This document shows, in pieces, positions 1,923 through 26,249 of a DNA stretch of 64,000 bases (position 1 is the first letter of the stretch; each line of letters begins with the position of its first letter). The stretch lies in the IMG/VR virus record IMGVR_UViG_3300046512_000357, positions 1,299 to 65,298 of that record; one strand, written 5' to 3'. A program made the position numbers and the translations under genes. Under the pieces are notes generated by a model. That model was not told the DNA's origin. It made no database searches and was given only the letters and a program-made list of their open reading frames with translations. Source of the stretch: a virus. Its lineage: Duplodnaviria; Caudoviricetes.

Positions 1923-2044
1923 CGCGTCACCCAGTAGTACAGGTTCACCACTCCGGCCGCCAGGTAGAGCAGGGCGATCAGTTGGAACGCGCGGCGCCGG
2001 CAGTGCGGGGCGCTGGGCATCGGGGCTTGCAGGTCTTCGCTCAT
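1919..2044 (-). CDS. Small membrane peptide (41 aa)
   Basis: MSEDLQAPMPSAPHCRRRAFQLIALLYLAAGVVNLYYWVTR; AAGGA upstream; stop overlaps the GTG of the next gene. Confidence 0.5.
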   Translation of the reverse strand: MSEDLQAPMPSAPHCRRRAFQLIALLYLAAGVVNLYYWVTR

Positions 2045-2058
2045 GTTATTATTTCCTT

Positions 2059-2703
2059 ATGAAAGCAATAACGGAACTGTTTGAATCCTGGATCACACGT
2101 TTTTGCGCGTTGATTCTGTTGAGCGCTGGCTCGTTTGGCGCGTTCAACTGGATACGCTGGTCGGCGTTGAGTGCGTCCGACTGGGCAACCTGGTTCGGGA
2201 GCGTCGGGACGGTAACAGCGGTGGTTGTGGCCGCGTTTGCGATATACGCGCAAAACCGAAACGCGCGCGAACTCGAGCGATTGCGACGCGATCAAGATGA
2301 GGCCGCAACTTTGCTTGCGCTGTGCTACCTCGGTCGGGAGGTCAGGCAAATGTGCACGCTTTCCGGGTTCCAGATAGATACCCCAGGCAATCCTATTCTT
2401 TACCCGGACATTAGCGCCAACTTCGCGTCGATCGCGGCGATGATCGGCGCGCTGCCCATTGAGCGCGTAGCAGCGCGCAGTATGGTTGGGCTGTCTCTTG
2501 CTCTCCGCAGGATTGCTCTGCATATGAGTGAGATTTACAAAGTAAATCCGCAACAGGGCGACGGATTCTACCTTGCGAATCGCAACCGCCTCGTCGATCT
2601 CGACGTGCGATGCGGAGAAGTGAGTGGCGCTCTTCGAGAAGCGTTGAAGGCCTTCGCTCCCGACCTGTATGCTCAGCATTCGACCGAACTTCTTCGACTG
2701 TAG
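2059..2703 (+). CDS. Antisense moron, membrane protein with 2 N-terminal TM segments
   Basis: MKAITELFESW...WATWFGSVGTVTAVVVAAF; lower GC; extended -10 TGtTATTAT at 2044-2052. Confidence 0.75.
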   Translation: MKAITELFESWITRFCALILLSAGSFGAFNWIRWSALSASDWATWFGSVGTVTAVVVAAFAIYAQNRNARELERLRRDQDEAATLLALCYLGREVRQMCTLSGFQIDTPGNPILYPDISANFASIAAMIGALPIERVAARSMVGLSLALRRIALHMSEIYKVNPQQGDGFYLANRNRLVDLDVRCGEVSGALREALKAFAPDLYAQHSTELLRL

Positions 2704-2720
2704 CTGCTCAGGGCACCGGC

Positions 2721-3644
2721 TCATATAGCCTCCGGAAAGCCGTTGTAGGTGTGCCCATCCAACTCACGGCCGGCCGCCCGCTTGCCGATCTTGGCCATGT
2801 GCTGGCCGTCCTCGAACCGGTGCCATAGCGGCTGGTCAGTAAACGGCGCAGCGCCCTGCAAGGTGAGCGTCTTGCCTAGAATGCTCCGGCCATCTTGGGC
2901 CGGTGCCCATTCTCCCCATTGTTTGAATAGGAACGGCACGCTGGTAGTGGCGCACTGGTCGCGTAATTCGCGCGCCCAGACTGGGTGCATCGGTCGTGCG
3001 CCTGGACCGGACTCGCCGCCGACGATGACCCAATCCATCGCCTCCAACATATTGGTGCAGTCACGGATGTTGTCGGGGTTTGCGAACAGGCCTTGAAAGC
3101 TGACCGGCCCTAGAAGCGGCTCCATGCTTAGGAAGCGGCGCTCGACGGCGACACGCAGCAGCTTGGGAATATCGCGCTCGGCCTCTTCCTGATTCACGAT
3201 GGTCGCGCCCAGCAGCACGTTATCGGGGACGCCGTCGAGGAACATCTCGCCCAGCATGTCGCCAGCATTGCCGATCCGCTTCGTCAGCAGCAGCCAATCG
3301 AGGTTCGGTGTCGCTTGTATCAAATCTGCCAGATCGGCGCGCCACGTTGGGTCGACCGCGTTGTCGAACACGTCGGCCAAGCTGGCGCAGAACACGCGCT
3401 GGCGATGGTCGTGCGCCGCGTAGAACTCAGCGTGCGCTGCGTTCCAAGCCAGCGGCTTGCGCCAGTTTGCTGCGCTGGTGCGGCGGCGCGGCGCTCCCGG
3501 TCCCCAGTTGACGGCCGTGCCGCCGCCGAAGCGCGCATTGCGCGTCTCGGCGTAGCAGTGGTCGCAGCCCAGGCCGACTTTTTGGCAGCCTTCCCACGGA
3601 TTAAAGGTGTGGTCCGCCCATTCGATTGTGGTGTTCTCGCTCAT
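2721..3644 (-). CDS. Phage Gp37/Gp68 (DUF5131) family protein, radical-SAM-like three-Cys motif
   Basis: TTIEWADHTFNPWEGCQKVGLGCDHCYAE, LLLTKR, SMEPLLG, WVIVGGESG, FLFKQWG. Confidence 0.92.
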   Translation of the reverse strand: MSENTTIEWADHTFNPWEGCQKVGLGCDHCYAETRNARFGGGTAVNWGPGAPRRRTSAANWRKPLAWNAAHAEFYAAHDHRQRVFCASLADVFDNAVDPTWRADLADLIQATPNLDWLLLTKRIGNAGDMLGEMFLDGVPDNVLLGATIVNQEEAERDIPKLLRVAVERRFLSMEPLLGPVSFQGLFANPDNIRDCTNMLEAMDWVIVGGESGPGARPMHPVWARELRDQCATTSVPFLFKQWGEWAPAQDGRSILGKTLTLQGAAPFTDQPLWHRFEDGQHMAKIGKRAAGRELDGHTYNGFPEAI

Positions 3645-3668
3645 GCTAATATTGCCTATCTGAAAAGG

Positions 3669-4283
3669 ATGAATATGTTTGAGAAATTGCTAATGGGCTT
3701 GGCTGTAATAGTTGGAATTGCTGCCACGGTAATGATTTCTTTTGTGTGCTACACCCAATGGCCGGATAAGGATTCGAGTCTTCCTGCGTGGATACAGGCC
3801 ATTGGCTCGGTGGCGGCGATTTTTGTAGCTATCGGTGTCATGGATTTTCAACACCGCCAAGCTAAAAGACAGAAGGAAACTGAGCGTGTCGATCTGCAGT
3901 TGAACCTCGGTGCTGCTCTTGAAAATGCGGCAAACAGGCTTGTTGATGTATTGAACGAGGTGTGCGCCATTACGACCGAAGGAAAAATGACGCCGGTCGC
4001 GGTGGTCTATGCACACTCGCAGCTTGCTCATGTGCTTGCGGCTATTGACAGAATCGAGCTTGTTGGGATGCATGGTGAGAACGTTAAACATTGCGGTAAA
4101 TTAAGTACTGCATGCGGAAAAGTTATGTCGTACACATCCATCTATAAGGAAAAGCAGGCGAGTGATGGACCTGCACTATTTCGGCAAGCTACAGATCAGC
4201 TAGAAGAAGTGACTGAGGTGATCGCCAATATCGAAAGGCTTCGAGTCAATCAGCAGAGTCGCCTAACCATGCTCGTTGGGTAG
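3669..4283 (+). CDS. Antisense moron, membrane protein with 2 N-terminal TM segments
   Basis: MNMFEKLLMGLAVIV...AWIQAIGSVAAIFVAI; low GC; extended -10 TGcTAATAT at 3644-3652. Confidence 0.78.
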   Translation: MNMFEKLLMGLAVIVGIAATVMISFVCYTQWPDKDSSLPAWIQAIGSVAAIFVAIGVMDFQHRQAKRQKETERVDLQLNLGAALENAANRLVDVLNEVCAITTEGKMTPVAVVYAHSQLAHVLAAIDRIELVGMHGENVKHCGKLSTACGKVMSYTSIYKEKQASDGPALFRQATDQLEEVTEVIANIERLRVNQQSRLTMLVG

Positions 4284-5882
4284 CCGCTTTTTAGGACTGC
4301 CCTCGCTAATTTCTTGGCGCACCAAGGTGCGCTGCCCTCCGACTAAGGGCCCCACAACTTTTCCTTCCATCGCTTCCAGCAGTTGTGCCGCCCGGTTGTA
4401 GCCGATCCGCAGGTGGCGCTGGATCAGCGATATCGACGCGCGCTGGTTGGTGCGCACCACGGTGACGGCCTGTTCATACAGCGGGTCGCTGGCGCTGCCG
4501 TCGCCGGCGGGCACATCGGCGCTGGCGCCAAGCTCCACGGTCTTGCCGCCGAAGGTGATGGTTGCGGTGGCGCCATCCTTGGCGAGGCTGTTGTTCAGCC
4601 GGCGCGCGGCGGCTAGCGCGCTGCCGTCGTCGCCGACCACGCGCTGCTTGCGCACCGGCTCGTCACCCTGAGCGGCGCGCTGCGTTGGCTCTACAATCTC
4701 CACGGCCGCCACCAACATCATCTGCGCGGAGGTCGAGCCGGTCGGAAAGGAATTCGCTAGCACGAGCGCTGCCTTGATAGCGCCTTCACTACTGACAGCC
4801 ATCTGCTCACTCACGCGGTCGATGTAGGGCTGCACCGTTTGCTCATACAGCTCGGCCAGCACGTCGCGGTGCATGGCACGGACCTTGTACAATTCGGCCG
4901 ACAGGCCCACCGCGCGTTCAAGTTTCTGCTGGCTCACGCCGGCCGGCGCCGCTTTTTGCTCGCCAGGCTCGCTCACCGTCGCCTCTCCGCCCAGCGCCTC
5001 GACCAGATCGCCCATCAGCTTCGCCAGCTCGCCGGACATCAGCGCGAAGTCGCCGTCGAAACGCTCGTCGTCGTTCCGGATCGAGCCGCGCGAATCTTCC
5101 GTCAAAACGTCCAGCATCTTCACCGACTTGATGGCCAGGGTCTCGTCCAGCACGAAGCTGATTTTGCTATCCCACGTCATGGCCAGGCGCGTGCACTGCT
5201 TGCCGGCCTTGATGTGTTCCGCGACCTCGGCGCCGCCCAGCGTGTGGCGTTTGTACTGCACCTGAGCCTTGCTCTCACCGGTGGCGCGTAGCGTGGCGTC
5301 CTGGTCGACCGTGAAACCGGCCGGCGCTTCATCCGTTTGCAGCCATTCTGTCATCACGCCCACCGGCGAGCGCTGCACGCGCAGGCTTTCCAGCGGCATG
5401 CGATCCACCGCCTTCAGCAGCAGCTTGATCACGTTGTCCGCCTTCGACGGGCTAGCCGCGTCGACCACCAGCCAACCGTTTTTCGGATCGATCCAGGCGA
5501 GGGTAGTGCTCGCGATCGAGAACGCGCGCGGCAGCAGTTCGTCCGCGACGCGCTCCTTCAGTTCTTTCATCGCCTTCTTGCCTGGCGCGAAGCCCTGGGC
5601 CTCTTCCATCTCGGCGGCGCGCGCGACGGCCACCTGATTGATCACTGCCGGAGGCAGCAGCTTCTTCTCGCTCTGCAGCTTGATCAGGTACTGGCCGTTC
5701 ACGGCGTGCACCAGCTGGCCGGCGGCGCGCGGCGGCGCCCAGCCTTCGCGCAGCAGCTCGTTGCTGCTGGCCGGCGTGAAGGTGTTCACGGAAAGGGCGC
5801 TGGCCAGCGCTTCGGCGGTCATCGTCCAGTTGCGCGGCAGGCGGTAAATTTGTAAATTTTTAAACATCGTCATTCCTATCAA
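4263..5882 (-). CDS. rdgC: Recombination-associated protein RdgC fused to a C-terminal FtsK gamma (winged-helix) domain
   Basis: MFKNLQIYRL...EKKLLP...KQCTRLAMTW...RFDGDFALM (RdgC); DPLYEQAV...ASISLIQRHLRIGYNRAAQLLEAME (FtsK gamma). Confidence 0.9.
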   Translation of the reverse strand: MIGMTMFKNLQIYRLPRNWTMTAEALASALSVNTFTPASSNELLREGWAPPRAAGQLVHAVNGQYLIKLQSEKKLLPPAVINQVAVARAAEMEEAQGFAPGKKAMKELKERVADELLPRAFSIASTTLAWIDPKNGWLVVDAASPSKADNVIKLLLKAVDRMPLESLRVQRSPVGVMTEWLQTDEAPAGFTVDQDATLRATGESKAQVQYKRHTLGGAEVAEHIKAGKQCTRLAMTWDSKISFVLDETLAIKSVKMLDVLTEDSRGSIRNDDERFDGDFALMSGELAKLMGDLVEALGGEATVSEPGEQKAAPAGVSQQKLERAVGLSAELYKVRAMHRDVLAELYEQTVQPYIDRVSEQMAVSSEGAIKAALVLANSFPTGSTSAQMMLVAAVEIVEPTQRAAQGDEPVRKQRVVGDDGSALAAARRLNNSLAKDGATATITFGGKTVELGASADVPAGDGSASDPLYEQAVTVVRTNQRASISLIQRHLRIGYNRAAQLLEAMEGKVVGPLVGGQRTLVRQEISEGSPKKRLPNEHG

Positions 5883-6343
5883 AAGCCGCGCGGCGGCGCT
5901 TCGTGAAACTCGACGCCCATCTGGCCGCCGAACGCGTGAATCTGCTCCATGTACTGGGCAAAGCCCTTGACCGTCAGGTCGGTCGAACTACCCACCAGAA
6001 TCGGCTGGCCGCCCGGGTCGAAGTCCCACTTGCGGTAGGCCTCGTCCTTGCACAGCTCCGGGTCGAATTCGTCCGGCAGGAACTGCTGCTTGAAGTACTC
6101 GTGCCAGATTTCGGCGCTGTACTGGCGCCCGTCGCTCCAGCACTGCTCGGCGATGTCTTTAAGCGGCCCGGCCCACATGCGCGCGTTCTGGTCGAGCTTC
6201 CGGGTCTTCACTTCCTCGCGCACCAGCAGTTCCAGCGGGCGCTCGGCATCCAGCGGCACGTTGCGGAGCAGGGCGATTGCGCGGTCGACCTGCTCCTGGC
6301 CGCGCAGCAGCAACTTGCGCTGCTCGAATTTCTGGCGGGTCAA
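5879..6343 (-). CDS. ninB: NinB (Orf) family recombination protein
   Basis: RKLDQNARMW...YSAEIWHEYFK...SSTDLTVKGFAQYMEQIHAFG; TTG start with GGAG RBS. Confidence 0.85.
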   Translation of the reverse strand: MTRQKFEQRKLLLRGQEQVDRAIALLRNVPLDAERPLELLVREEVKTRKLDQNARMWAGPLKDIAEQCWSDGRQYSAEIWHEYFKQQFLPDEFDPELCKDEAYRKWDFDPGGQPILVGSSTDLTVKGFAQYMEQIHAFGGQMGVEFHEAPPRGF

Positions 6344-6371
6344 GGCGGTGCTCCCAGCGTGCGGCGCGCGA

Positions 6372-7070
6372 TCACGCTGGCACCGCCTCGGCCGCTGGTT
6401 GTTTGGCCGCGTCGTACTGCTCGATGCCCCAGGCCAGGGCATACAGGCACCAGACCATTCCGAACGTGTAATCCTTCATCCGGTGTTCCCAAAGGTCTTC
6501 GAAGTGCCAGCTGTCGCGCGAGCCGGTGCTGTCGCTATCGCGATAGCTAAACTCGTGTGCAGCCCACAGCGCACGATCAACGCCGCCATCCTCCAGCGCA
6601 CCGAACACCTCATCGTCGACGGCTTCCCACAGCGCGCGGCGGCCGTCTTTATCCAATAAGCCTTCTGCCTTGGCGCTGCGCATCCAGAGCACACGGTACT
6701 GATTGATCACGCGCCGAAACGCGGCCTCGTCGTATTCCATCGCCTTGCCGCCGTCACGGCCGCCATGCACCGCAATCAGCTTCTCGGTCCAATAGCCGGG
6801 ATTGATGGCCAGGCGACGGCCGCGCTGGCGGTTGTATTCCCGGTCCGTCCGGAAGAAATCAAACATATCCGTCGTGCGCTGAAACACGTAGGTGCCCATG
6901 TCGCCGGTATAGCAGAGGTATCCGGGCCAGGTGATCAGGTCGAAGTACATGTTGCCGGTGTGCTGTTGTTTGAACCGGATGTGACGATTCACGCCGTCAT
7001 CTCGGATCACGACCATCTGGTGGTCGGCCACGTCGCGAAGGAAGCGCTCTTCGGTGCATTCGTGGCTCAT
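6372..7070 (-). CDS. Conserved hypothetical phage protein
   Basis: MSHECTEERFLRDVADHQMVVIRDDG...FDLITWPGYLCYTGDMG; ATGA overlap. Confidence 0.75.
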   Translation of the reverse strand: MSHECTEERFLRDVADHQMVVIRDDGVNRHIRFKQQHTGNMYFDLITWPGYLCYTGDMGTYVFQRTTDMFDFFRTDREYNRQRGRRLAINPGYWTEKLIAVHGGRDGGKAMEYDEAAFRRVINQYRVLWMRSAKAEGLLDKDGRRALWEAVDDEVFGALEDGGVDRALWAAHEFSYRDSDSTGSRDSWHFEDLWEHRMKDYTFGMVWCLYALAWGIEQYDAAKQPAAEAVPA

Positions 7071-7780
7071 GGCGCTACGCCTAGGTCGGCCACGTCGATG
7101 ACGATGCCACGGCAGTAAACAATGCCGTCTTCCATGATGTCGAAAGTGGCGTGCGGCACGTCGGTCTTGTAAGTCCAGCTGTAGCCCGGCTCGGCCGCCC
7201 ACAGCGCCTCCACCGTCTTGGCGTCTGGCTGGCGCGCGAAGAAGTCTTTCAGCTCGTCGTCGTCTTCGATGCTGTCGCGGTCTGGCAGCAGGCCTTTACC
7301 ATCGATCAACGCGGTACCACCGTCGTGGCAACCGAATTCATCGTTGATGGCGCCGCGCAGCTCCATCAAATCGTCGCTGGCGCCGAAGATCACCACCAGG
7401 CCGGCGGCCTTGGCTTGAGCCTTTCCCTCGGCGGTCAGGTCAAATGGGTATTCGCGGCCGTTCAGCAGCGCGGCGAAGTAGTCGCGGTTCTGGTGGTGCG
7501 CCGGTGCGGCGGCCACCGGCGCCGCCGACGGCAGGCCCATGTTCTGGTACGGGTGCTTGTCGCCGTACGGCTTGATGTGCTTGCCGAAGTGCGCGCCGGC
7601 CGACTCGGCGCTGGCGAAGGCGGCGTACTCCTGGGAGGTAAAATTCCGGTAGTGGTACACGTTGCCCGGCTGGCCCTTGCTCAGGAACTGGATCGCCAGC
7701 GTTTCGGTGGCGGGGTCGTGGCCGATGGCGGCCAACTGCGACGACTTGATCGGGGTCAGTGGGATGCTGTTTGCGTTCAT
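7067..7780 (-). CDS. KTSC domain protein fused to a conserved phage domain
   Basis: IKSSQLAAIGHDPATETLAIQF...YHYRN...FASAESAGAHF (KTSC), then VVIFGASDDLMELRG domain. Confidence 0.8.
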   Translation of the reverse strand: MNANSIPLTPIKSSQLAAIGHDPATETLAIQFLSKGQPGNVYHYRNFTSQEYAAFASAESAGAHFGKHIKPYGDKHPYQNMGLPSAAPVAAAPAHHQNRDYFAALLNGREYPFDLTAEGKAQAKAAGLVVIFGASDDLMELRGAINDEFGCHDGGTALIDGKGLLPDRDSIEDDDELKDFFARQPDAKTVEALWAAEPGYSWTYKTDVPHATFDIMEDGIVYCRGIVIDVADLGVAP

Positions 7781-7803
7781 GGTTTTCTCCTATGGTTGGG
7801 TGA

Positions 7804-12178: not shown

Positions 12179-12189
12179 AGCTTCTCCCT

Positions 12190-16143: not shown

Positions 16144-16161
16144 CTTCGAACTTGGTTGCCG

Positions 16162-16827: not shown

Positions 16828-16836
16828 CTTCCTAGG

Positions 16837-17739: not shown

Positions 17740-17789
17740 AATTCTCCTGCTCGCAAAACACCGTGCTTCGGTGGGCAAAGGTTAGTTGG

Positions 17790-17810
17790 CGCAAATAGCC
17801 TTCCAGTGAT
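17790..17810. repeat. 21-bp direct repeat, copy 2
   Basis: Identical to 16123-16143. Confidence 0.85.
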
Positions 17811-17832
17811 ATTCGCAGCATCCGGCTTCGGG

Positions 17833-18207: not shown

Positions 18208-18209
18208 TT

Positions 18210-18956: not shown

Positions 18957-18963
18957 AAATCCA

Positions 18964-19033
18964 AGAATATAAGTAAGCCTAATAATTATCAATTAGTCGG
19001 ACTGTTGACTTTAATTAGCAGTCGGACTAATAT
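18964..19033. promoter_or_regulatory. OR region: PR and PRM with operators
   Basis: PR TTGACT(19005)-17-TAATAT(19028); AGTCGGACT at 18995 and 19020, degenerate copy at 18972; PRM TTGATA-17-TATTCT on the - strand. Confidence 0.85.
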
Positions 19034-19039
19034 TCAGTC

Positions 19040-19318
19040 ATGAACTCGATATCCCACATCCGAGCAAAGCTCAAAGTCACTCAACAAGCCCTCGCTGAGG
19101 CGTTGCAGGTCAGTCAGGGGAACGTGTCTCACTATGAGCGCGGGCAGAGTGTGCCACCCGAAGTGGCGAAGCGACTAATCATATTCGCCGGAAAGCGGGG
19201 GCACGCGCTTACGTTCGACGACATTTATGGCGCACCACCAGCGTCATCCCCTTCATTAAGCGCCAGTGTGGCGTCTACTGCCGTGACCCAGGTCAACGCC
19301 ACCGGAGAAACCGCATGA
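19040..19318 (+). CDS. cro: Cro-like HTH regulator
   Basis: IRAKLKVTQQALAEALQVSQGNVSHYERG. Confidence 0.9.
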   Translation: MNSISHIRAKLKVTQQALAEALQVSQGNVSHYERGQSVPPEVAKRLIIFAGKRGHALTFDDIYGAPPASSPSLSASVASTAVTQVNATGETA

Positions 19319-19686
19319 AGCGCTACATCAACCGCCTGATGGCGCGCCTCGGCTACCTGCCGGCGCCGGCCAAGCTTGCCCCCAGTACCATCAACATGGA
19401 ACTCAACTTCCAGATCGACAGCACGCCACTGGATAACGCGATCGCCAAGCTCGACCAGCTCAGCTCGGCCGCCAGGCGCGCCGAGGCCGCGGTGACCGAC
19501 GCGCTGCTGGCGCAGGAAGGTGAGTTCATCGGCGCCGAGCTGGTCGCCGACAAATCGCAAGCCCTCATCCTCACCGCACTGCAAAAGCAGACCACGCTGC
19601 TGGAGGTGCTGGCGAAGCAGGGCGATCACGCCGCGCTGCGCACCGCGCCCGCCACCGGCGCTGCCGCATCCGGCCTGCCTGGCTGA
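19315..19686 (+). CDS. Hypothetical phage protein
   Basis: ATGA overlap with cro. Confidence 0.65.
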   Translation: MKRYINRLMARLGYLPAPAKLAPSTINMELNFQIDSTPLDNAIAKLDQLSSAARRAEAAVTDALLAQEGEFIGAELVADKSQALILTALQKQTTLLEVLAKQGDHAALRTAPATGAAASGLPG

Positions 19687-19765
19687 CGGCGCCGGCCCAA
19701 AAAATCGCACTACCAGAATCATCCGCATCACCTGAAAGCCTGAATCACTTTTATAGGAAACCACC

Positions 19766-20053
19766 ATGAACACCACTAGTAACCGCAAGCCCAATCCCCG
19801 CTTGAACGTCGTCAAGGTGTATCTCGGCGACGAAGAGCAGGCCACCCTGCAAAGTCACTGCCACGCCAGCGACACCAGTATCAGCGCATTCCTGCGCCAG
19901 GCTGGTATCCGCATCGCGACAGCGCACCAGCAGATTACCCGCTTCCCCGGGCGCCAAGAAGGGGCTGGTGCAGGCCTGCACCGGGCCTTCTCGTTCCCAG
20001 GCCAGGGCGTACGTCGCGTGTCGCGCGGCGCGCTGCGCCCGATGCGTTCGTGA
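19766..20053 (+). CDS. Ribbon-helix-helix-like small protein
   Basis: VVKVYLGDEEQATLQSHC...SISAFLRQAG; AGGA RBS. Confidence 0.55.
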   Translation: MNTTSNRKPNPRLNVVKVYLGDEEQATLQSHCHASDTSISAFLRQAGIRIATAHQQITRFPGRQEGAGAGLHRAFSFPGQGVRRVSRGALRPMRS

Positions 20054-20102
20054 ATTGCTGAACCGCTGCGCTCCACTCGACGCATACAGAAAGGACGAAC
20101 CG

Positions 20103-20861
20103 ATGCATCACCTGATGATCGCTGACGTGCAGATTCGCACCGATGAACATGGCCGCTTCTCGCTGAACGATTTGCATAAGGCTGCCGGCGCTGAAGCGCG
20201 CCACCAGCCTGCGCAGTTCCTGCGGCTTGACGCCACCGGAGCACTGGTAGATGAGCTGGCCGAGGAAAATGGCGGTATGGGAAATCCCATAGTGACGATC
20301 AATGGCGGCCGCGCGCCGGGCACGTTCGTCAGCAAGGAGCTTGTCTACGCTTATGCAATGTGGATTAGCCCTAAATTCCATCTGCAGGTCATCCGCACCT
20401 TCGACGCGGTTACCAGTGACTCCGCGCAAGCAACGCGCAAGCCCAAGGCGACGAAGCCGCCGGTACTGGAGGCCGCCACGATGATGCCCGCCCTAGTGCG
20501 CGCGCTGCGCGCCTGCGGCATCGACAAGAACGCGGCGGCCATTGGCGCCAACCAGATCGCCACCGCGCAAACCGGCGTGAACCTGTTGGCCATGGCTGGC
20601 CACTCGCATCTGCCAACACCAACCCAGCAAATCTGCTACACGCCGACCGAGCTGGGCAAGCGCTTCTGCCAAAGCGCCATCACATTCAACCGCCGCCTTG
20701 CTGATGCTGGTTTGCAAGAGAACATCGGCGGGCACTGGGTCCCGACCGAAAAGGGCCGTAAGCACGCGGTCGTGCTGGACACCGGAAAAGCCCATAGCAG
20801 CGGCACGCCGATCCAGCAGGTGAAATGGATCGATTCCGTTTTGGCAGAAGTCGCTTTGTGA
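20103..20861 (+). CDS. KilA-N domain protein (antirepressor-like)
   Basis: IRTDEHGRFSLNDLHKAAG...GTFVSKELVYAYAMWISPKFHLQVIRTF; C-terminal PTELGK...PTEKG. Confidence 0.9.
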   Translation: MHHLMIADVQIRTDEHGRFSLNDLHKAAGAEARHQPAQFLRLDATGALVDELAEENGGMGNPIVTINGGRAPGTFVSKELVYAYAMWISPKFHLQVIRTFDAVTSDSAQATRKPKATKPPVLEAATMMPALVRALRACGIDKNAAAIGANQIATAQTGVNLLAMAGHSHLPTPTQQICYTPTELGKRFCQSAITFNRRLADAGLQENIGGHWVPTEKGRKHAVVLDTGKAHSSGTPIQQVKWIDSVLAEVAL

Positions 20862-20911
20862 ATCCGGGATGCCGCGCCCCGTTGCGCGCGGCGAAGAAGA
20901 TGGAGAACCGC

Positions 20912-21154
20912 ATGCCCCAAGCATCGCAAATTCAACCTGGCGCCGGCGCGGCGCTGCTCGATCACTTAATCGAGAAATTGCGCCTGAAAAACGACGCCGC
21001 CCTCGCGCGCGCTTTCGAAGTGGCGCCGCCAGTAATAAGCAAGATCCGCCACGACAAGCTGCCGTTCGGTGACAGCATGATCTTGAAGGCGCACGAGAAG
21101 TACAACTTCACCGTGCAGTCGATCCGCCAACTGCTGGCCGGCGAGGGCGCGTAA
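20912..21154 (+). CDS. Small HTH DNA-binding protein
   Basis: LLDHLIEKLRLKNDAALARAFEVAPPVISKIRH. Confidence 0.8.
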   Translation: MPQASQIQPGAGAALLDHLIEKLRLKNDAALARAFEVAPPVISKIRHDKLPFGDSMILKAHEKYNFTVQSIRQLLAGEGA

Positions 21155-21156
21155 CG

Positions 21157-21309
21157 ATGACGCAGCAGCAGCAGCACCAGCACCAGGCCGCCGAGGAAGT
21201 GCGGCCAATGGAAGTCGAACCGGCGCACGTCATGACGCGGGAAAAGCACAAGCAGCGCGAACACTACGAACGCATGCTGCGCGAATTGGAAAAAGAGCAG
21301 CAGAAATAG
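21157..21309 (+). CDS. Small hypothetical protein
   Basis: MTQQQQHQH...ELEKEQQK; in operon. Confidence 0.45.
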   Translation: MTQQQQHQHQAAEEVRPMEVEPAHVMTREKHKQREHYERMLRELEKEQQK

Positions 21310-21356
21310 AAAAGGCCGCGTTGGAGCGCGACCCGATCACCCATCAGAGGAATTAC

Positions 21357-21563
21357 ATGCCTACTATTTTACAGCAAGGACCGGCGCCAGCACAGACTGG
21401 CACGCCGGAGGAGAAAGTCACGCTCGCGGCCCGCGAATGGCGCGAAAAGGACCGTGAGCACATCGCGGAAAAGAACGCCGCCACAGGCGCTGCGGAGTAC
21501 CGCGCGCGCCGCAAGCTGCGCATGACCGTCGACCTGACCGACGGGAAGGCTGGCCAGCCATGA
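21357..21563 (+). CDS. Hypothetical phage protein
   Basis: GAGG RBS; coupled to the next gene. Confidence 0.55.
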   Translation: MPTILQQGPAPAQTGTPEEKVTLAAREWREKDREHIAEKNAATGAAEYRARRKLRMTVDLTDGKAGQP

Positions 21564-21892
21564 GGAAGCTCCCACACCCCACCAGCCTTGCGCACGCGAT
21601 GCTGCGCCAGCTCGCCGCCGGCCCCGGCACCTTCTATCAGATCTGCGAACTGCTCGAATTCGATATCGAAGACGACAAGGTCGAGACGGTCTGCCGTGCG
21701 CACTTCAGCGACCTCGTGGACGCTGGCCATGCTTACCTGGTCGACCTGACCTACCACGTCACTACCGCCGCGCGCGCCGCCATCGCGCCGCCGGCGCCGT
21801 ACGTCGGCCAGATTGCCGGCCCAGCTTATCGCGGCACGCCGCATCCGATGCCAGTCACCATTGCGCGCCGCGCAGCGGGAGCGCGGGCATGA
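21560..21892 (+). CDS. Hypothetical (winged-helix-like) phage protein
   Basis: ATGA overlaps on both sides. Confidence 0.6.
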   Translation: MRKLPHPTSLAHAMLRQLAAGPGTFYQICELLEFDIEDDKVETVCRAHFSDLVDAGHAYLVDLTYHVTTAARAAIAPPAPYVGQIAGPAYRGTPHPMPVTIARRAAGARA

Positions 21893-22542
21893 CCAAATCA
21901 CGCGGCATCAACGCACCCAAGCACAAATGGACGCCCGAGCAGGACGCCATCCTGCGCAACCAATATCCCGACATGCGCGCCGCCGACGTCGCCGCTGCAC
22001 TCGGCATTCGCCTGACATCCCTTTACGCGCGCGCCAAGAGGCTGGGCCTCACGAAGTCAGACGAGTTCAAGAACAGTTCGGCCTCCGGGCGCCTTGACGG
22101 CGTACGCGGATCGGCCACCCGATTTGCATCTGGACACGTGCCATGGACGAAAGGCCAGAAGGGTATCCGCCTCAGTCCAGACACGGAGTTCAAGAGGGGC
22201 GAGCGCCCTGTGAACTACATGGCAGTCGGCTCCGAGAAGCTGCACATGGGATATGTGTGGCTGAAGATTGCCGACGGCGGCTGGCCAGAGGCATGGAGAC
22301 CGAAGCATCACGTCATCTGGGAGCGCTCGCACGGCGCCGCACCGCCGGTAACGCACCTATTGTCGTTCCGCGACCGTGACCGCAATAACTTCGCACTCGA
22401 CAACCTTGAGCTGATCAGCAAGGCAGACTGGATGCGCCGTTATACGCGCCACAACCTGCCGAAAGAGATCGCTGATCTGATGGCCCTGCAAGGCGCACTC
22501 ACGCGCCAAATCAACAAACGGAGCAAAGCACATGAGCAATAA
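21889..22542 (+). CDS. HNH endonuclease-family protein
   Basis: WTPEQDAIL N-terminus; KHHVIWE...FRDRDRNNFALDNLELIS. Confidence 0.8.
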   Translation: MTKSRGINAPKHKWTPEQDAILRNQYPDMRAADVAAALGIRLTSLYARAKRLGLTKSDEFKNSSASGRLDGVRGSATRFASGHVPWTKGQKGIRLSPDTEFKRGERPVNYMAVGSEKLHMGYVWLKIADGGWPEAWRPKHHVIWERSHGAAPPVTHLLSFRDRDRNNFALDNLELISKADWMRRYTRHNLPKEIADLMALQGALTRQINKRSKAHEQ

Positions 22543-22777
22543 CAACATCGACGCACTTCGCGAACACCTGTTTGGCGCGCTGGCTGGTCTGAAGGACGGC
22601 TCGGTGGATATCGAGAAGGCCAAGGCCATCTCCGGCGTGGCGCAAGTGATCATCAATACTGCGAAGGTCGAGGTCGAATACGCCAAAGCTACCGGACAGG
22701 GCGGCAGCGAGTTCCTGGCGCCGAAGCCAGCGCTACCAGCTGGCATCACCGGCGTCACCCAACATCGGATTCGCTGA
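22532..22777 (+). CDS. Conserved phage protein (HNH partner)
   Basis: LREHLF...DIEKAKAISGVAQVIINTAKVEV. Confidence 0.75.
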   Translation: MSNNNIDALREHLFGALAGLKDGSVDIEKAKAISGVAQVIINTAKVEVEYAKATGQGGSEFLAPKPALPAGITGVTQHRIR

Positions 22778-22779
22778 CC

Positions 22780-23364
22780 ATGAGCGTGAAGCCAATTCAC
22801 GGGCTATCTCAGGTCCCCGAGTATCGAGCCTGGCAGACGATGCGCTTACGCTGCACGGAACCCGCAAACCCTGCATACGCGAACTACGAAGGCCGGGGTA
22901 TCGCCGTCTGCGATCGGTGGCTGAATTCTCCTGCGGCATTCATCGACGACATGGGGGCGAAGCCTACGCCCCAGCACGAGTTAGACCGTCGCGACAACAG
23001 CGCTGGCTACTCGCCGGAGAACTGTCGGTGGGTGACGCGCAGCGTCAATGATCGCAACCGCCGGTCGAACCGCATGGTCACCTACTCGGGAGAAACGCAT
23101 GCACTCGCGCATTGGTGCGAGCAGTTCGGCATTCGCCCTGACACGGCAAAGAAACGCCTCGATGCAGGCTGGACGCCAGAAGAAGCATTCACGATCCCGG
23201 CGCGCACCAAGGCTCTGAATGGCCAGGCAAAGCCGCTCAAGCACGAGTGCGTTACCTGCGGCGCCCTAACCACTGGTACACGCTGTCGTCCTTGCGAAAA
23301 CAAGGCACGCCCGGCGCGCGCCAACTTCGCGCACGAGCGTGAGATTGTGATGGTAGCTGCGTGA
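22780..23364 (+). CDS. HNH-like homing endonuclease-related protein
   Basis: YRAWQTMRLRC...YEGRGIAVCDRW...LDRRDNSAGYSPENCRWVT. Confidence 0.8.
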   Translation: MSVKPIHGLSQVPEYRAWQTMRLRCTEPANPAYANYEGRGIAVCDRWLNSPAAFIDDMGAKPTPQHELDRRDNSAGYSPENCRWVTRSVNDRNRRSNRMVTYSGETHALAHWCEQFGIRPDTAKKRLDAGWTPEEAFTIPARTKALNGQAKPLKHECVTCGALTTGTRCRPCENKARPARANFAHEREIVMVAA

Positions 23365-23368
23365 GGAA

Positions 23369-23674
23369 TTACGATTTTTCGCTCGAATGGTACATAGGGC
23401 CCCGCCATTGCGGGGTGTGTTTATCCACCTGTATCTCGAGTGCCTCTACGTCAATTATTCCGGCTTGGATTTTTGCGACGGTAAAACCTATCAAGTCAGT
23501 CGCGCCAACATCGCTCGCTACCGGTGCCCAGAAGTCATTGCGTCGAAGTATGAATCGGAGAGCGGGCGCGTGCGATGGATCGCCAGTGGTAATTTCCACA
23601 TTGGCAACATCATTCCAGACCGATATGTTGGCATGCCAGCGCTCGCCGGGTTCAACTTCCATTTCGTATTTCAT
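23369..23674 (-). CDS. Antisense moron, hypothetical protein
   Basis: Low GC; GGAG RBS; extended -10 TGaTAGTAT overlapping the ATG at 23707. Confidence 0.6.
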   Translation of the reverse strand: MKYEMEVEPGERWHANISVWNDVANVEITTGDPSHAPALRFILRRNDFWAPVASDVGATDLIGFTVAKIQAGIIDVEALEIQVDKHTPQWRGPMYHSSEKS

Positions 23675-23706
23675 AACATCTCCATTGCAAAAAAGAAAAT
23701 ACTATC

Positions 23707-24144
23707 ATGATCTACGACCTATCCCGCGCCGAGCGCCAGCACCGCGCCATCGCCAACGAAAAACCAGGCCCGGTCCTGCAATCGAAGCGCTGCGCCTGCG
23801 GTAAAGCTTCGCCGGCCAAAGTGCTTGCGCAGTACAAGAAGTGCCACGGCTGCCAACTCGCCGACCGCATCGCCACGCTTCAAGACGGCGATCTGGACAT
23901 CCTGCGCCACATGGTGGGCGCGACGCCACACCACCCGATGGTGCGCTGGGGCTTCCGCAACGAATACCTGGTGAACCGCCGCGATGCGGCAGCGCTGGCT
24001 CGCCTGGTCGCCGCTGGCTTCGCGCGCGCCGGCCGCCCGCTGCTCCAGCTGCAATACTTCCATGCCACTGATGTCGGTTGCCGTCTCGCTGGTCTGTCGG
24101 CGAAACGCGCAGCCGTGGCACTGTCGCTGGGAGCGCGACCATGA
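23707..24144 (+). CDS. Hypothetical phage protein
   Basis: CxC...CxxC N-terminus; LRHMVG...GFRN...YFHATDVG domain. Confidence 0.7.
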   Translation: MIYDLSRAERQHRAIANEKPGPVLQSKRCACGKASPAKVLAQYKKCHGCQLADRIATLQDGDLDILRHMVGATPHHPMVRWGFRNEYLVNRRDAAALARLVAAGFARAGRPLLQLQYFHATDVGCRLAGLSAKRAAVALSLGARP

Positions 24145-24197
24145 CGAGCCTCGTATCCGAACTGGCCGACGTCTGGCCACTGATGCATTGCTACAAA

Positions 24198-24458
24198 CTA
24201 GTCATTTGGTTCCGATTTGGAATGCGAGCCAATCCACTCCTGAGCGTACTGGAGCACGCCATTTATTGCTTCGGCCTCGGTCAGGTATCCCTCTCCATCA
24301 GGGCCCTGTTGGACCGTTTTCCCCAGTACTACTTCGCCCACATCTGGCCCCATTCCTTTTTGGATGCTGAATTCAGCAAAAAAGCGATCACGCGGGGTTT
24401 TGAATGGATTAATGAGGATTGCGTGGCCGCCGTAACGGTGGAAAGGGGGCTTGCTCAT
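24198..24458 (-). CDS. Antisense moron, hypothetical protein
   Basis: MSKPPFHRYGGHAI...TEAEAINGVLQYAQEWI; AGGA RBS; TGcTAATCT promoter. Confidence 0.6.
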   Translation of the reverse strand: MSKPPFHRYGGHAILINPFKTPRDRFFAEFSIQKGMGPDVGEVVLGKTVQQGPDGEGYLTEAEAINGVLQYAQEWIGSHSKSEPND

Positions 24459-24493
24459 GGGGATGTTCCTAGTGTGGAAAATGTGAGATTAGC

Positions 24494-25240
24494 ATGATTC
24501 ACTACCACGGCCTCCCAATCACTCCCGCGACCGCAGCCCTTCGGGCAATCAGCGGTGGTCATGCGTTTGTGTCGTTCCGGCATCCAGAACAGTTGACTCT
24601 TGCGTTGGAGGTGTCGCAGTCGTTCGCAGTCGACAACGGCGCCTTCTCCGCGTGGCGTAGCGGTAACCCTGTGACCGACTGGGAACTATATTACGACTGG
24701 GTGGCAGAACTGCATCGCTACCCAGGATTTGATTTTGCCGTCATCCCTGATGTCATTGATGGCAATGAGGCGGCAAATGACGCACTGCTGGCGGAATGGC
24801 CTTGGCGCGAGCACGCTCCACACATTGGGGCGCCTGTGTGGCACTTGCACGAGTCACTGGAACGTCTCGGCCGGTTGGTCGCTGCCTGGCCGCGCATTTG
24901 CCTTGGCAGCTCGGGTGAATTTGCGAAGATCGGCACGCCGGCCTGGTGGACCCGCATGGCGGAAGCCATGGACGTGATCTGCGACCGATCCGGCCGGCCT
25001 TGCGCCAAGATTCACGGCCTGCGCATGCTTGACCCGGCGGTATTCTCACGCTTCCCGTTTGCCTCGGCGGACAGCACCAACATTGGCCAGAATGTAGGCA
25101 TCGATTCGGCCTGGAAGGGCACCTACACGCCGCCGACCAAGGAGGCGCGGGCGGCGATTATGCGCGAGCGAATCGAATCGCATCAGGCGCTGACGTTCTG
25201 GCAGCGTGCGGCCGCGCCAATTCAGGAGGGGCTGTTTTGA
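24494..25240 (+). CDS. TGT/DpdA-like (guanine transglycosylase fold) phage protein
   Basis: FAVDNGAFSAW, AVIPDVI, PVWH, KIHGLRM, SADST resemble TGT-barrel motifs (DSGGF, PD, HxLG, SxDS). Confidence 0.6.
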   Translation: MIHYHGLPITPATAALRAISGGHAFVSFRHPEQLTLALEVSQSFAVDNGAFSAWRSGNPVTDWELYYDWVAELHRYPGFDFAVIPDVIDGNEAANDALLAEWPWREHAPHIGAPVWHLHESLERLGRLVAAWPRICLGSSGEFAKIGTPAWWTRMAEAMDVICDRSGRPCAKIHGLRMLDPAVFSRFPFASADSTNIGQNVGIDSAWKGTYTPPTKEARAAIMRERIESHQALTFWQRAAAPIQEGLF

Positions 25241-25250
25241 TGACATTTCG

Positions 25251-25520
25251 TTACAGGAGTTTCAGAGCTTGCGCGGCTGTAATTGCAGTGCTGACAGCTG
25301 AAATTAGCGCCCCTGCAGCTGCGGCAATGCCTGCGACCATCGTCCATTTGGCAGAACGCTGCGCGGCCTCCGCCGCGATTCTGGCTGCCTCACTTGCGGT
25401 CGCCGATGAGTCGGCTGCGTTCTTGACCATCTCTTCAATTGCATCCGCAGTCCGGATGGATGCCTTAGCTTTTTCCTTCTGCAGTATCTCTGCCATCGGG
25501 TCCCAGACTTCTCGCGTCAT
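25251..25520 (-). CDS. Antisense moron, coiled coil + C-terminal TM
   Basis: MTREVWDPMAE...KWTMVAGIAAAAGALISAV; AGGAG RBS; TGcTAGTAT promoter. Confidence 0.65.
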   Translation of the reverse strand: MTREVWDPMAEILQKEKAKASIRTADAIEEMVKNAADSSATASEAARIAAEAAQRSAKWTMVAGIAAAAGALISAVSTAITAAQALKLL

Positions 25521-25553
25521 TTCTGCTCCTAGTTTTAAAGAGGAAATACTAGC

Positions 25554-26249
25554 ATGATGCGCCGCACACCCATGAAGCCCAGCACCTTGCCCTTGAAGCG
25601 CACCGCGTTCGCGCGCGGTGAGCGCATCGAGGCCCGCGAGGTGACGAAGATCATCACCAAGGCTGCGCGCGAGAAGAAGCACAAATGCGCCGTCCGCACC
25701 TGCCGCGCCGACTTCGTCCGGCCGGCGCCATTCGTCACCTGGTGCTCGCCGGAGTGCGGAACCTTGCTGGCCATGGCGAAGCTGGAGAAGCAGAAGCGGG
25801 AGACGGCCACCGCCGAGCGCAAGGACCGTCAGCAGAAGCTGGCCAAGTTCAAGCGCAAGGCCGATCACGTGGCCGACTGCCAGAAAGCCTTCAACGCCTG
25901 GGTGCGGTTCCGTGACCGCAACGAGCCGTGCATCGATTGCGGCAAGTTCGCTAGCAGCGACGCGCTGACCGGGGGGGTATACGACGCCGGCCACTACCTG
26001 TCGCGTGGCAGCCATCCACACCTGCGGTTTGACGAGCGCAACGTGTTCAAGCAGCTGAAGGGCTGCAACCGGCCTGGCGGCACCACGGCGGCATCGTTCC
26101 GCGCCGGCATCGTCGCGCGCATCGGCCTGGCCGACGTGGAGGCGCTGGAGGCGGACAACGAGCCGCGCCATTACACGGTCGACCAGCTGATCGCCCTGAC
26201 CGCGCACTACAAACAAAAACTTAAAGAACTGAAAGCGGCCGCCGCCTGA
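25554..26249 (+). CDS. ninG: NinG (Rap) recombination endonuclease
   Basis: WCSPECG, QKAFNAWVRFRD..PCIDCG, YDAGHYLSRG, LRFDERNV. Confidence 0.92.
   Translation: MMRRTPMKPSTLPLKRTAFARGERIEAREVTKIITKAAREKKHKCAVRTCRADFVRPAPFVTWCSPECGTLLAMAKLEKQKRETATAERKDRQQKLAKFKRKADHVADCQKAFNAWVRFRDRNEPCIDCGKFASSDALTGGVYDAGHYLSRGSHPHLRFDERNVFKQLKGCNRPGGTTAASFRAGIVARIGLADVEALEADNEPRHYTVDQLIALTAHYKQKLKELKAAAA

What the first reader, a model, noticed from the sequence alone, without database searches (positions are those of the whole stretch)
2042..25556. Antisense morons share a junction in which the phage start codon forms part of the moron's extended -10 promoter (CATG-N-TANNNT)
Seen: five low-GC genes oriented against the early operons each begin back-to-back with a phage gene. 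On the moron strand the phage ATG complement is followed by the same pattern: CATGtTATTAT (2042), CATGcTAATAT (3642), CATGaTAGTAT (23709-), CATGcTAATCT (24496-), CATGcTAGTAT (25556-). A sixth moron has TGaTAATCT about 9 nt from the ATG at 36096. Known: TGnTAnnnT is the sigma70 extended -10 and needs no -35. Inference: one ~25-bp element serves as RBS/start for the phage gene and as constitutive promoter for the cargo. This points to a recurring capture rule, or cassette system, that places lysogen-expressed genes at start codons inside silent lytic operons.
Basis: partly seen in the sequence, partly recalled or inferred. Interest (0 to 1): 0.85.

Follow-up and report, generated by a model that had tools for sequence, protein, structure and literature searches.

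The report
Start-codon-overlapping promoter sockets for antisense phage cargo
In this temperate phage and its relatives, single backwards-facing accessory genes sit between phage genes, joined by a tiny shared element that looks like a promoter for the accessory gene and a ribosome site plus start codon for the phage gene, though no transcript has been measured.

Summary
CATGNTANNNT occurs 5 times in the window. The raw count is not above chance, but all 5 hits sit where a phage gene's ATG abuts a lower-GC antisense gene.

The same in-register junction recurs in related phage loci. The catalogue holds 35 junctions (5 from the window), covering 23 cargo families and 15 phage-gene families, and more were found in five whole relatives. 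It is register-specific. It is absent from the same phage genes' starts when no antisense gene is present. Sites are empty in some relatives and filled with different cargo in others.

Seven cargos have their ATG exactly 7 nt after the hexamer, which predicts leaderless mRNA. One identical 29-nt element joins unrelated cargos to unrelated phage genes.

New here: the phage-strand frame that ends at the junction's ATGA is kept stop-free across the cargo, and cargo codons are depleted accordingly.

Promoter activity is inferred, not shown. The overlap with the start codon is frequent but not obligatory. I class this as a new variant of phage morons and mobile regulatory cassettes. Earlier unchecked scan notes describe similar "promoter sockets" on other DNA.

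The parts
2042..2061 (+). Junction 1. CAT 2042-2044 is the complement of the ATG of the minus-strand 41-aa phage gene 1919..2044. TG is at 2044-2045 and the hexamer TATTAT at 2047-2052. The cargo ATG is at 2059, which is the predicted +1 (leaderless).
   Evidence: spacing read from the sequence
2059..2703 (+). Cargo A: 214 aa with two predicted N-terminal TM helices, cargo family 0, no known family.
2041..2724 (-). Phage-strand 'bridge' frame. It runs from ATGA at the DUF5131 stop to ATGA at the next phage start and is open across cargo A (227 codons). Its product looks non-protein-like.
2721..3644 (-). Phage DUF5131 (gp37-like) gene, flanked on both sides by antisense cargo.
3642..3677 (+). 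Junction 2. CATG is at 3642-3645 over the DUF5131 ATG and the hexamer TAATAT at 3647-3652. AAGGA is at 3664-3668, with cargo ATG at 3675 (or 3669).
3675..4283 (+). Cargo B: 202 aa, two-TM, same cargo family 0 as cargo A. Its 3' end overlaps the stop of the convergent phage gene 4263..5882.
23672..23709 (-). Junction 3. C is at 23709 and the phage ATG at 23707-23709. The hexamer TAGTAT is at 23704..23699, followed by GGAG and then the cargo ATG at 23674.
23369..23674 (-). Cargo C: 101 aa. A homolog occupies the same site in L001.
24456..24496 (-). Junction 4. C is at 24496 and the DpdA/TGT-like ATG at 24494. The hexamer TAATCT is at 24491..24486, followed by AGGAA and then the cargo ATG at 24458.
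24198..24458 (-). Cargo D: 86 aa. The site is empty in L001 and filled with other DNA in L002.
25518..25556 (-). Junction 5. C is at 25556 and the NinG ATG at 25554. The hexamer TAGTAT is at 25551..25546, followed by AGGAG and then the cargo ATG at 25520.
25251..25520 (-). Cargo E: 89 aa, tail-anchored-looking. A homolog (59% aa in the alignment) sits at the same site in L031, a different cargo in L001, and the site is empty in L002.
36051..36098 (-). Displaced variant. TGATAATCT is at 36088..36080, seven bases from the phage ATG at 36096, then GAGGA and the cargo ATG at 36051 (ORF 35743..36051).
19005..19042 (+). Internal comparison: a canonical promoter, TTGACT (19005-19010), N17, TAATAT (19028-19033). 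The cro-like ATG at 19040 has the same 6-nt gap as in junction 1, so it is also predicted to be leaderless.
   Evidence: read from the sequence

Best explanation
Each junction is a compact start-to-start expression module of 17-45 bp, shared by two divergent genes.

On the cargo strand it reads as a sigma70-type extended -10 promoter, TG-n-TAnnAT, with no -35 element. The TG comes from the complement of the phage gene's ATG plus a C at -1. Transcription would start about 7 nt after the hexamer. In one class of junctions that position is the A of the cargo ATG, giving a leaderless mRNA. In the other class a leader of about 10-30 nt carries a GGAG-type ribosome site.

On the phage strand the same bases supply an AGGA ribosome site about 8 nt before the ATG, the ATG itself, and usually ATGA. 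The TGA of that ATGA ends a stop-free frame that runs antisense across the cargo. Phage-operon ribosomes could therefore translate through the insert and reinitiate at the next phage gene.

The module, with or without its cargo, is exchanged among Burkholderiales temperate phages. It acts as a socket that holds many different accessory genes at many phage gene starts, preferentially at former NTGA stop/start overlaps.

Shown: the anatomy, its recurrence, its register specificity, empty and filled sites, portability, and the codon bias. Inferred: promoter activity, sigma70 dependence, expression in the lysogen, translation of the bridge frame, and the recombination mechanism.
For: 1. Window. 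All 5 of 5 motif hits are at divergent phage-start/antisense-gene junctions.

2. Register specificity in 160 related loci, counting distinct contexts with ORFs of at least 60 aa on both sides:
- motif: 29 of 44
- hexamer shifted +1: 9 of 45
- hexamer shifted -1: 0 of 25
- hexamer shifted +2: 1 of 29
- no G: 4 of 52
- any CATG: 1945 of 10831

3. Dependence on cargo. The motif is at 1 of 80 DpdA-like starts and 10 of 80 DUF5131 starts, in every case with an abutting antisense ORF.

4. Diversity. The 35 catalogued junctions cover 23 cargo families and 15 phage-gene families.

5. Promoter-like conservation at a base the search did not fix. The hexamer's fifth base is A in 32 of 35, which is the -8 A of TATAAT.

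6. Leaderless class. Seven cargos start with ATG at offset 17, exactly 7 nt after the hexamer, and have no ribosome site. None of the chosen starts lies at offsets 15, 16, 18 or 19. The phage's own canonical promoter at 19005-19033 has the same geometry before the cro-like ATG.

7. No -35. The consensus scan finds no two-hexamer promoter at any junction. The -35 region differs completely among contexts that share an identical element.

8. Enrichment against a reversed-pattern control:
- CATGNTANNAT: 18 versus 0 in five whole related phage records; 13 of these lie between a phage ORF of at least 100 codons and a cargo ORF of at least 70 codons
- CATGNTANNATTYC: 12 versus 0 in five bacterial genomes of Janthinobacterium, Oxalobacteraceae, Burkholderia and Cupriavidus

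9. Empty and filled sites with different cargos at the same ATG.

10. Portability. An identical 29-nt element lies between at least 3 unrelated phage genes and 2 unrelated cargo families in 7 contexts.

11. The cargos are the real genes. Substitutions at codon positions 1/2/3 are 367/310/539, and G1-C1 is positive in 34 of 35.

12. Bridge frame.
- The junction frame is stop-free across the cargo in 22 of 35, against 7 of 70 for the other antisense frames (p = 3e-8).
- The cargo start offset is 2 mod 3 in 22 of 35 (p = 4e-4).
- In the 22 codon-aligned cargos, TTA+CTA+TCA make up 2.5% of Leu+Ser codons, against 20.9% for comparable A-ending codons. In the 13 non-aligned cargos the figure is 14.7%.
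Against: - No call measured transcription, so the promoter reading rests on sequence logic and established E. coli knowledge of extended -10 promoters.
- The hexamers depart from TATAAT in the middle: the fourth base is G in 23 of 35.
- T, A and T of the hexamer, and CATG, are fixed in the catalogue by the search pattern itself.
- C at -1 is already common at cargo-free starts (69 of 125), so the 'TG' is partly free. It is enriched only from about 55% to 88% (29 of 33).
- The raw count in the window is at chance level. TGNTANNATTYC is only 74 versus 59 control in five bacterial genomes.
- In motif-independent cargo-homolog places the element is sometimes displaced 15-24 nt from the ATG, lacks the G, or is absent.
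- 5 of 12 bacterial-genome hits have no long ORF starting at the CAT.
- The loci were reached through two anchor genes and share ancestry, so the counts are not independent events.
- Near-identity of the 29-nt element in unrelated contexts shows that recombination or hitch-hiking, not only function, maintains some of the similarity.
Confidence: 0.65

Rival explanations
1. The promoter is real but not a constitutive sigma70 promoter. The TA(G/C)GAT-TCC consensus would be read by another sigma factor, or be controlled by a phage or host regulator or by transcriptional interference from the phage operon. Cargo expression would then be conditional.
For: The hexamer consensus has G at its fourth position in 23 of 35 junctions, and T-C-C follows it even where the phage ATG is 24 nt away. 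Neither feature is explained by TATAAT. Cargo transcription runs head-on into the early operons.
Against: TG, T-12, A-11, A-8 and T-7 are the sigma70 contacts known from E. coli work (recalled knowledge). The window's own hexamers (TATTAT, TAATAT, TAGTAT) are closer to TATAAT. No operator-like repeat was seen at the junctions.
Confidence: 0.15
2. The shared junction is mainly a recombination module or scar. A short element would be spread by phage recombinases, as PeSLs are in T4-type phages. Its similarity would then reflect recent exchange plus the phage gene's need for a ribosome site after operon disruption. The cargo promoters would lie elsewhere.
For: An identical 29-nt element lies between unrelated genes on both sides, and homology breaks at the two start codons. 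Inserts are flanked by NTGA...ATGA in the compared alleles. AGGA sits 8 nt before the phage ATG.
Against: Junctions with quite different sequences still keep TG-n-TAnnAT in the same register. Leaderless cargos have no room for any other promoter-to-ATG geometry. The motif is absent from starts of the same genes that have their own ribosome site but no antisense neighbour. Portability and promoter function are also not mutually exclusive.
Confidence: 0.12
3. The motif is a start-associated translation signal of the phage genes, comparable to the start-associated sequences recalled from cluster K mycobacteriophages. It would be unrelated to the antisense genes.
For: It lies directly upstream of phage start codons and contains an AGGA at good spacing.
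Against: It is absent from 149 of 160 starts of the two anchor genes, and present only with antisense cargo. The same TGnTAnnATTCC element occurs upstream of cargo homologs 15-24 nt away from any phage ATG. The window has no hit at any other gene start.
Confidence: 0.05
4. The pattern is a chance product of AT-rich short intergenic DNA next to C-ATG.
For: The window count equals the shuffle expectation. C at -1 is common.
Against: The register controls, the 18 versus 0 and 12 versus 0 reversed-pattern controls, A at the unconstrained fifth hexamer base in 32 of 35 junctions, and the exact offset 17 of seven leaderless starts.
Confidence: 0.03

Closest known systems
Phage morons (prototype HK97 gene 15; review 'The moron comes of age', PMC3594210, of which I read one passage)
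   Same: They are extra genes between neighbours that are adjacent in relatives. Their GC differs from the surroundings, and they are presumed to be expressed from their own promoter in the repressed prophage.
   Different: Here the genes are antisense singletons inside early (PL/PR-type) operons. No terminator of their own was found. The promoter is fused to the neighbour's start codon and ribosome site. The opposite strand is kept stop-free.
PeSL mobile regulatory cassettes of T4-type phages (Arbiol et al. 2010, PMC2839356, abstract read; PMC4122927, seen only in the search listing)
   Same: Both are short conserved sigma70-like promoter elements that flank variable, mostly unknown ORFs. Recombination between them shuffles the cargo.
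   Different: PeSLs are a promoter plus a stem-loop terminator, lie on the same strand as their genes, and occur in hyperplastic regions of virulent phages. Here there is no consistent stem-loop. The elements run start-to-start between divergent genes in temperate Burkholderiales phages.
Extended -10 (TGn) promoters of E. coli (recalled textbook knowledge; no paper read)
   Same: TG lies one base upstream of a TAnnnT hexamer, with no -35 match.
   Different: Activity here is untested. The hexamer consensus is TA(G/C)(G/T)AT, and the TG is supplied by a neighbouring gene's start codon.
Lambda PRM/cI leaderless mRNA (PMC10491246, abstract start seen in the listings)
   Same: The ATG lies at the transcription start of a lysogen-expressed gene that is divergent from a lytic gene.
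   Different: Lambda PRM is a regulated, -35-containing, CI-activated promoter about 80 bp from PR. It does not overlap a start codon.
Earlier notes of this scan on other DNA (e1-530228, e1-3261863; unchecked AI notes)
   Same: They describe backwards-facing prophage cassettes that share a promoter or leader 'socket' but carry different small genes.
   Different: The phage lineages differ (an E. coli prophage and another). Neither note mentions a start-codon overlap or a bridge frame in the lines I saw.

Membership tests
Phage moron | Present between two genes that are adjacent in related phages | tested here: met
   The 145-aa gene and DpdA-like gene overlap directly in L001 (TTGA) but are split by 353 nt in the window and about 1290 nt in L002. 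DpdA-like and NinG overlap directly in L002 but are split in the window, L031 and L001.
Phage moron | Base composition differs from the flanking phage genes | tested here: met
   Cargo GC is 0.48-0.57, against about 0.62-0.65 for the window.
Phage moron | Own promoter active in the lysogen | not testable with these tools
   Only a sequence-level extended -10 match is available. No transcript data could be laid.
Phage moron | Own terminator | tested here: not met
   Terminator-like sites number 4 and 5 in the two regions, against 4.2 and 4.1 in shuffles, and none is consistently placed after the cargos. The gap from the cargo stop to the upstream gene's stop is -21 to 53 nt.
Extended -10 sigma70 promoter | TG one base upstream of a TAnnnT hexamer | tested here: met
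   5 of 5 window junctions. G is present in 29 of 33 in-register junction contexts.
Extended -10 sigma70 promoter | Initiates transcription without a -35 element | not testable with these tools
   No two-hexamer promoter is found at the junctions, and upstream sequences are unrelated among identical elements. Initiation itself is unmeasured.
Leaderless mRNA gene | Start codon at the transcription start, with no ribosome site | tested here: inconclusive
   Seven cargos have ATG exactly 7 nt after the hexamer with only 6 pyrimidine-rich bases between. The N-terminal Met column is invariant in the family alignment. The TSS has not been mapped.
PeSL-like mobile regulatory cassette | Near-identical short element flanked by unrelated genes | tested here: met
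   A 29-nt element is identical in 7 contexts, with at least 3 unrelated phage genes and 2 unrelated cargo families.
PeSL-like mobile regulatory cassette | Stem-loop terminator joined to the promoter | tested here: not met
   Folding of six junction RNAs gives z-scores of -0.3 to -2.2, with no shared hairpin.

The most novel reading that the evidence does not exclude
Burkholderiales temperate phages may use a translation-transparent antisense cargo socket. Accessory genes would be plugged in backwards at stop/start overlaps of early operons. They would be driven by a -35-less promoter built on the neighbour's start codon. They would be recoded to avoid TTA, CTA and TCA so that phage ribosomes can read straight through the insert on the other strand and reinitiate at ATGA. 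Short start-to-start elements of about 30 nt would serve as the recombination handles that move cargos between sockets. This would be a previously undescribed way of adding lysogen-expressed genes to an operon without polar effects, with selection acting on both strands of one gene for different reasons.
Probability: 0.35. Interest if true: 0.85.

Novelty: new variant of a known kind. Interest (0 to 1): 0.68.

Why it matters
If the reading holds, four things follow.
- It gives a simple sequence signature (T-CATG-n-TAnnAT-TCC, then either ATG at +17 or a GGAG-ATG) for finding lysogen-expressed accessory genes in Burkholderiales prophages. These are likely exclusion or defence candidates of unknown family. 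Codon-usage-based gene callers can miss them: my own crude caller picked the bridge frame instead of the cargo at three of the five sites.
- It shows how far regulatory compaction can go, with about 17 bp serving a promoter, two start codons, a ribosome site and a stop.
- It links moron acquisition to portable regulatory elements outside the T4-type phages.
- The stop-free opposite strand suggests a testable solution to the polarity problem of inserting antisense genes into operons, which would be useful for engineering.

Tried and rejected
- **RNA evidence.** The look-up of sequencing runs on window:22500-26500 listed no RNA holder. The best holder is a rhizosphere metagenome that may be the source, so read laying was not used and no TSS could be mapped.
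- **Cultured relatives.** The phage collection gave only 72.9-79.3% matches over the DUF5131 gene. One of them, a Burkholderia phage record, has an 'empty' ATGA overlap at that gene's start. Cargo A has no tblastn match in 50,697 phage records.
- **Cargo function.** There were no significant Pfam, PHROG, PADLOC or NCBIfam matches. The only hits were weak and below cut-off (DUF1003, NotI, MprF, phrog_33632). The protein atlas gave only 'hypothetical protein' clusters.
- **Terminators after the cargos.** They are not above the shuffle level.
- **A hairpin pairing the two ribosome sites in the phage mRNA.** It appears only in the L016-type element (z = -2.2). The five window junctions give z = -0.3 to -1.6, so I rejected it as a general feature.
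- **NTGA flanks as a target-site duplication.** The upstream stop is [AGT]TGA in 20 of 26 cases, but the base rate is 625 of 1458 (43%). The enrichment is modest, which makes this suggestive only.
- **C at -1 as strong evidence for TG selection.** This is weakened by the 55% base rate.
- **The idea that the bridge ORFs are the real genes and the cargos their shadows.** I rejected this on the codon-position substitution pattern and G1-C1.
- **Heuristic junction finder and crude gene caller.** Both were noisy and were used only for orientation.
- **Rows dropped.** L032 and L033 were removed from the catalogue because the phage-side ORF is 52 codons and the context is palindromic. Identical contexts were counted once. 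In one search, two cargos cut by locus ends were mis-phased; one search corrects this.
- **Literature.** Searches found no description of a start-codon-overlapping extended -10 at antisense phage genes. Supplements were not consulted, and subscription journals are not covered.

Full report
**What the window is.** It is 64 kb of a 65.3-kb virus record with about 63% GC. It has lambdoid features: NinG, a DpdA/TGT-like gene, DUF5131, and a cI/cro-type divergence at 18992/19040. The closest homologs of its DpdA-like protein in named genomes are in Janthinobacterium (85-87%), an Oxalobacteraceae bacterium (86%), Duganella (83%), Burkholderia anthina (80%), Cupriavidus (79%) and Paraburkholderia (75%). 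The host is therefore probably a member of the Burkholderiales. The best DNA holder is a rhizosphere metagenome.

**The observation.** The raw count is unremarkable: 3.28 are expected, and 27 of 100 shuffles reach 5. What is remarkable is where the hits are. Each CAT is the complement of the ATG of a phage gene. The same strand then carries a lower-GC ORF of 86-214 aa that starts 17-38 nt from the C of CATG. The five antisense genes interrupt otherwise co-directional runs of phage genes. Two lie in the leftward block on either side of DUF5131. Three lie in successive gaps of the rightward nin-like region. The sixth case is as described, with TGATAATCT seven bases from the ATG at 36096.

**Are the antisense ORFs real?** High-GC DNA is full of shadow ORFs, and in four of the five cases the phage strand also carries a long open frame. 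The evidence favours the antisense ORFs. Across seven homologous cargo pairs, substitutions fall 367/310/539 on codon positions 1/2/3 of the cargo frame, and G1-C1 is positive in 34 of 35 cargo frames. Cargo A and cargo B belong to one two-TM family with an invariant Met, Trp and Gly. None of the cargos has a known family.

**Recurrence elsewhere.** I fetched 80 loci around relatives of the DpdA-like gene and 80 around relatives of DUF5131 from IMG/VR. With the window included, the motif occurs in 49 distinct contexts, 37 of them with ORFs of at least 40 aa on both sides. After dropping two that look like chance, 35 junctions remain: 5 from the window and 30 from the loci. They involve 23 cargo families and 15 phage-gene families. 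The two-TM family sits next to 7 different phage gene families. The DUF5131 start carries at least 8 different cargo families.

The association is specific to the exact register (distinct contexts with ORFs of at least 60 aa on both sides):

| Pattern | Both-sided / total |
|---|---|
| Motif, in register | 29 / 44 |
| Hexamer shifted +1 | 9 / 45 |
| Hexamer shifted -1 | 0 / 25 |
| Hexamer shifted +2 | 1 / 29 |
| G replaced | 4 / 52 |
| Any CATG | 1945 / 10831 |

Five whole related phage records hold CATGNTANNAT 18 times, against 0 for the reversed control. Thirteen of these lie between a phage ORF of at least 100 codons and a cargo ORF of at least 70. Five bacterial genomes hold CATGNTANNATTYC 12 times against 0, and 7 of the 12 have a phage-side ORF of at least 50 codons.

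The motif is not a general feature of phage starts. It is at 1 of 80 DpdA-like starts, and that one (L002) has an antisense ATG ORF 14 nt away. It is at 10 of 80 DUF5131 starts, each with an antisense ORF starting 14-38 nt away; six of the ten also have an AT-rich upstream 30 nt (GC below 0.45). Within the window it is at no other start.

**Empty and filled sites.**
- The 145-aa gene and the DpdA-like gene overlap by TTGA in L001. They are separated by 353 nt in the window and about 1290 nt in L002. Both inserts begin just after ATGA and end with ...C-ATGA.
- The DpdA-like gene and NinG overlap by TTGA in L002. They hold cargo E in the window, its homolog in L031 and an unrelated ~215-aa ORF in L001.
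- Across the catalogue the upstream gene's stop is [AGT]TGA in 20 of 26 cases, against a base rate of 43%.

**Why a promoter is the best reading.**
- *Conservation beyond the search pattern.* The search pattern does not fix the fifth hexamer base, yet it is A in 32 of 35 junctions, as in TATAAT. G after CAT is present in 29 of 33 in-register junctions, against a 55% base rate of C at -1.
- *No -35.* There is no -35 match, and the -35 region is unrelated among contexts that share an identical element. This suits a TG-dependent promoter.
- *Leaderless geometry.* Seven cargos have ATG at offset 17, exactly 7 nt after the hexamer's last T, with no ribosome site in the 6 intervening bases. The remaining cargos mostly have a GGAG-type site 5-8 nt before an ATG or GTG at offsets 21-62. 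The phage's canonical TTGACT-N17-TAATAT promoter shows the same 6-nt gap before the cro-like ATG.
- *The element can stand apart from the start codon.* Motif-independent searches for cargo homologs find the same TGnTAnnAT-TCC element 15-24 nt from the phage ATG in L004, L005, L031 and L117. They find an in-register hexamer without the G in L105 and L106, and nothing recognisable in L109 and L134. The promoter-like element is therefore the constant, and the start-codon overlap is its commonest placement.

**The phage-strand reading.** On the phage strand the consensus is AGGAATCnTAnC-ATGA, with AGGA about 8 nt before the ATG. This is a well-placed ribosome site.

**Portability.** A 29-nt stretch, from the CATG into the cargo's ribosome site, is identical in six IMG/VR stretches and one Janthinobacterium MAG. 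On its left are a 349-aa gene, a PAPS-reductase-like gene or NinG-like genes. On its right is either a Cys-rich 217-aa protein or a divergent two-TM protein with 24-55% identity. Nucleotide homology between such contexts is confined to about 30-42 nt around the element. In behaviour this matches the PeSL cassettes of T4-type phages (abstract), but there is no stem-loop.

**The bridge frame.**
- The T before CATG is present in 30 of 35 junctions. This makes ATGA on the phage strand.
- The frame ending at that TGA is stop-free across the whole cargo CDS in 22 of 35 junctions. The other two antisense frames are stop-free in 7 of 70.
- In 13 of 23 ATGA junctions with a clear upstream gene, the frame is open all the way back to that gene's stop.
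- The cargo start offset is 2 mod 3 in 22 of 35 junctions. This puts the bridge frame codon-aligned with the cargo.
- In those 22 cargos the three codons that would read as antisense stops (TTA, CTA, TCA) make up 2.5% of Leu+Ser codons. Comparable A-ending codons make up 20.9%. In the 13 non-aligned cargos the figure for TTA, CTA and TCA is 14.7%.

This looks like selection on cargo codon choice to keep the phage strand translatable. The plausible purposes are translational coupling and avoidance of polarity, but that is inference.

**Limits.**
- No transcript data exist for this phage (see Tried and rejected).
- The catalogue is motif-selected and was reached through two anchor genes, so the junctions are not independent.
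- The hexamers are G-rich in the middle.
- TGNTANNATTYC as such is barely enriched in bacterial genomes (74 versus 59).
- Whether the promoters are constitutive, and what the cargos do, is unknown.

**Verdict.** The promoter/ribosome-site double reading is the best explanation, at about 0.65. The 'cassette system' idea is supported in the form of portable start-to-start elements and variable cargo at NTGA overlaps. I found no description of this in five literature searches. It is best classed as a new variant of morons and mobile regulatory cassettes.

Noticed in passing
window 2041-2724(-), 23387-23710(+), 24141-24497(+), 25237-25557(+); loci of the catalogue: The phage-strand frames across the antisense cargos are kept open: 22 of 35 against 7 of 70 for other antisense frames. 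The cargos are depleted about 8-fold in TTA, CTA and TCA when they are codon-aligned with that frame. My crude codon-usage gene caller picked the bridge frame instead of the cargo at three of the five window sites.
   Followed up: yes
window 19005-19042: A canonical TTGACT-N17-TAATAT promoter precedes the cro-like ATG at 19040, which lies exactly at the predicted +1. The lytic repressor gene is therefore probably leaderless too.
   Followed up: partly
window 63110-63129: A LexA-box-like palindrome (CTGT-N8-ACAG inside TACTGT...ACAGTA) lies just inside the start of ORF 63103..63822, next to the divergent ORF 62348..63049. This may be an SOS-controlled gene at the phage end.
   Followed up: no
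window 22780-23364(+): The phage gene immediately upstream of cargo C is an HNH endonuclease (phrog_3377, E = 2e-52). Whether such nucleases play any part in cargo turnover was not examined.
   Followed up: no
window 61059-62351(-): A 430-aa ORF lies in a 40% GC island near the right end, far below the phage's GC. It is probably a separate accessory or defence-type gene, and it contains a chance TGCTAGGAT on the other strand.
   Followed up: no
L192 (Burkholderia anthina genome contig), position 1501: A junction element with a family-3-like cargo has its CAT followed on the other strand by an immediate TGA (ATG-TGA). The phage start looks vestigial there. Five of 12 bacterial-genome hits lack a long phage-side ORF.
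   Followed up: partly
L223/L226 (whole record G006, 65330-65341): A perfect palindrome CATGCTAGCATG near the end of a related phage record matches the motif on both strands, with no ORFs on either side. It is probably unrelated to the junctions.
   Followed up: no
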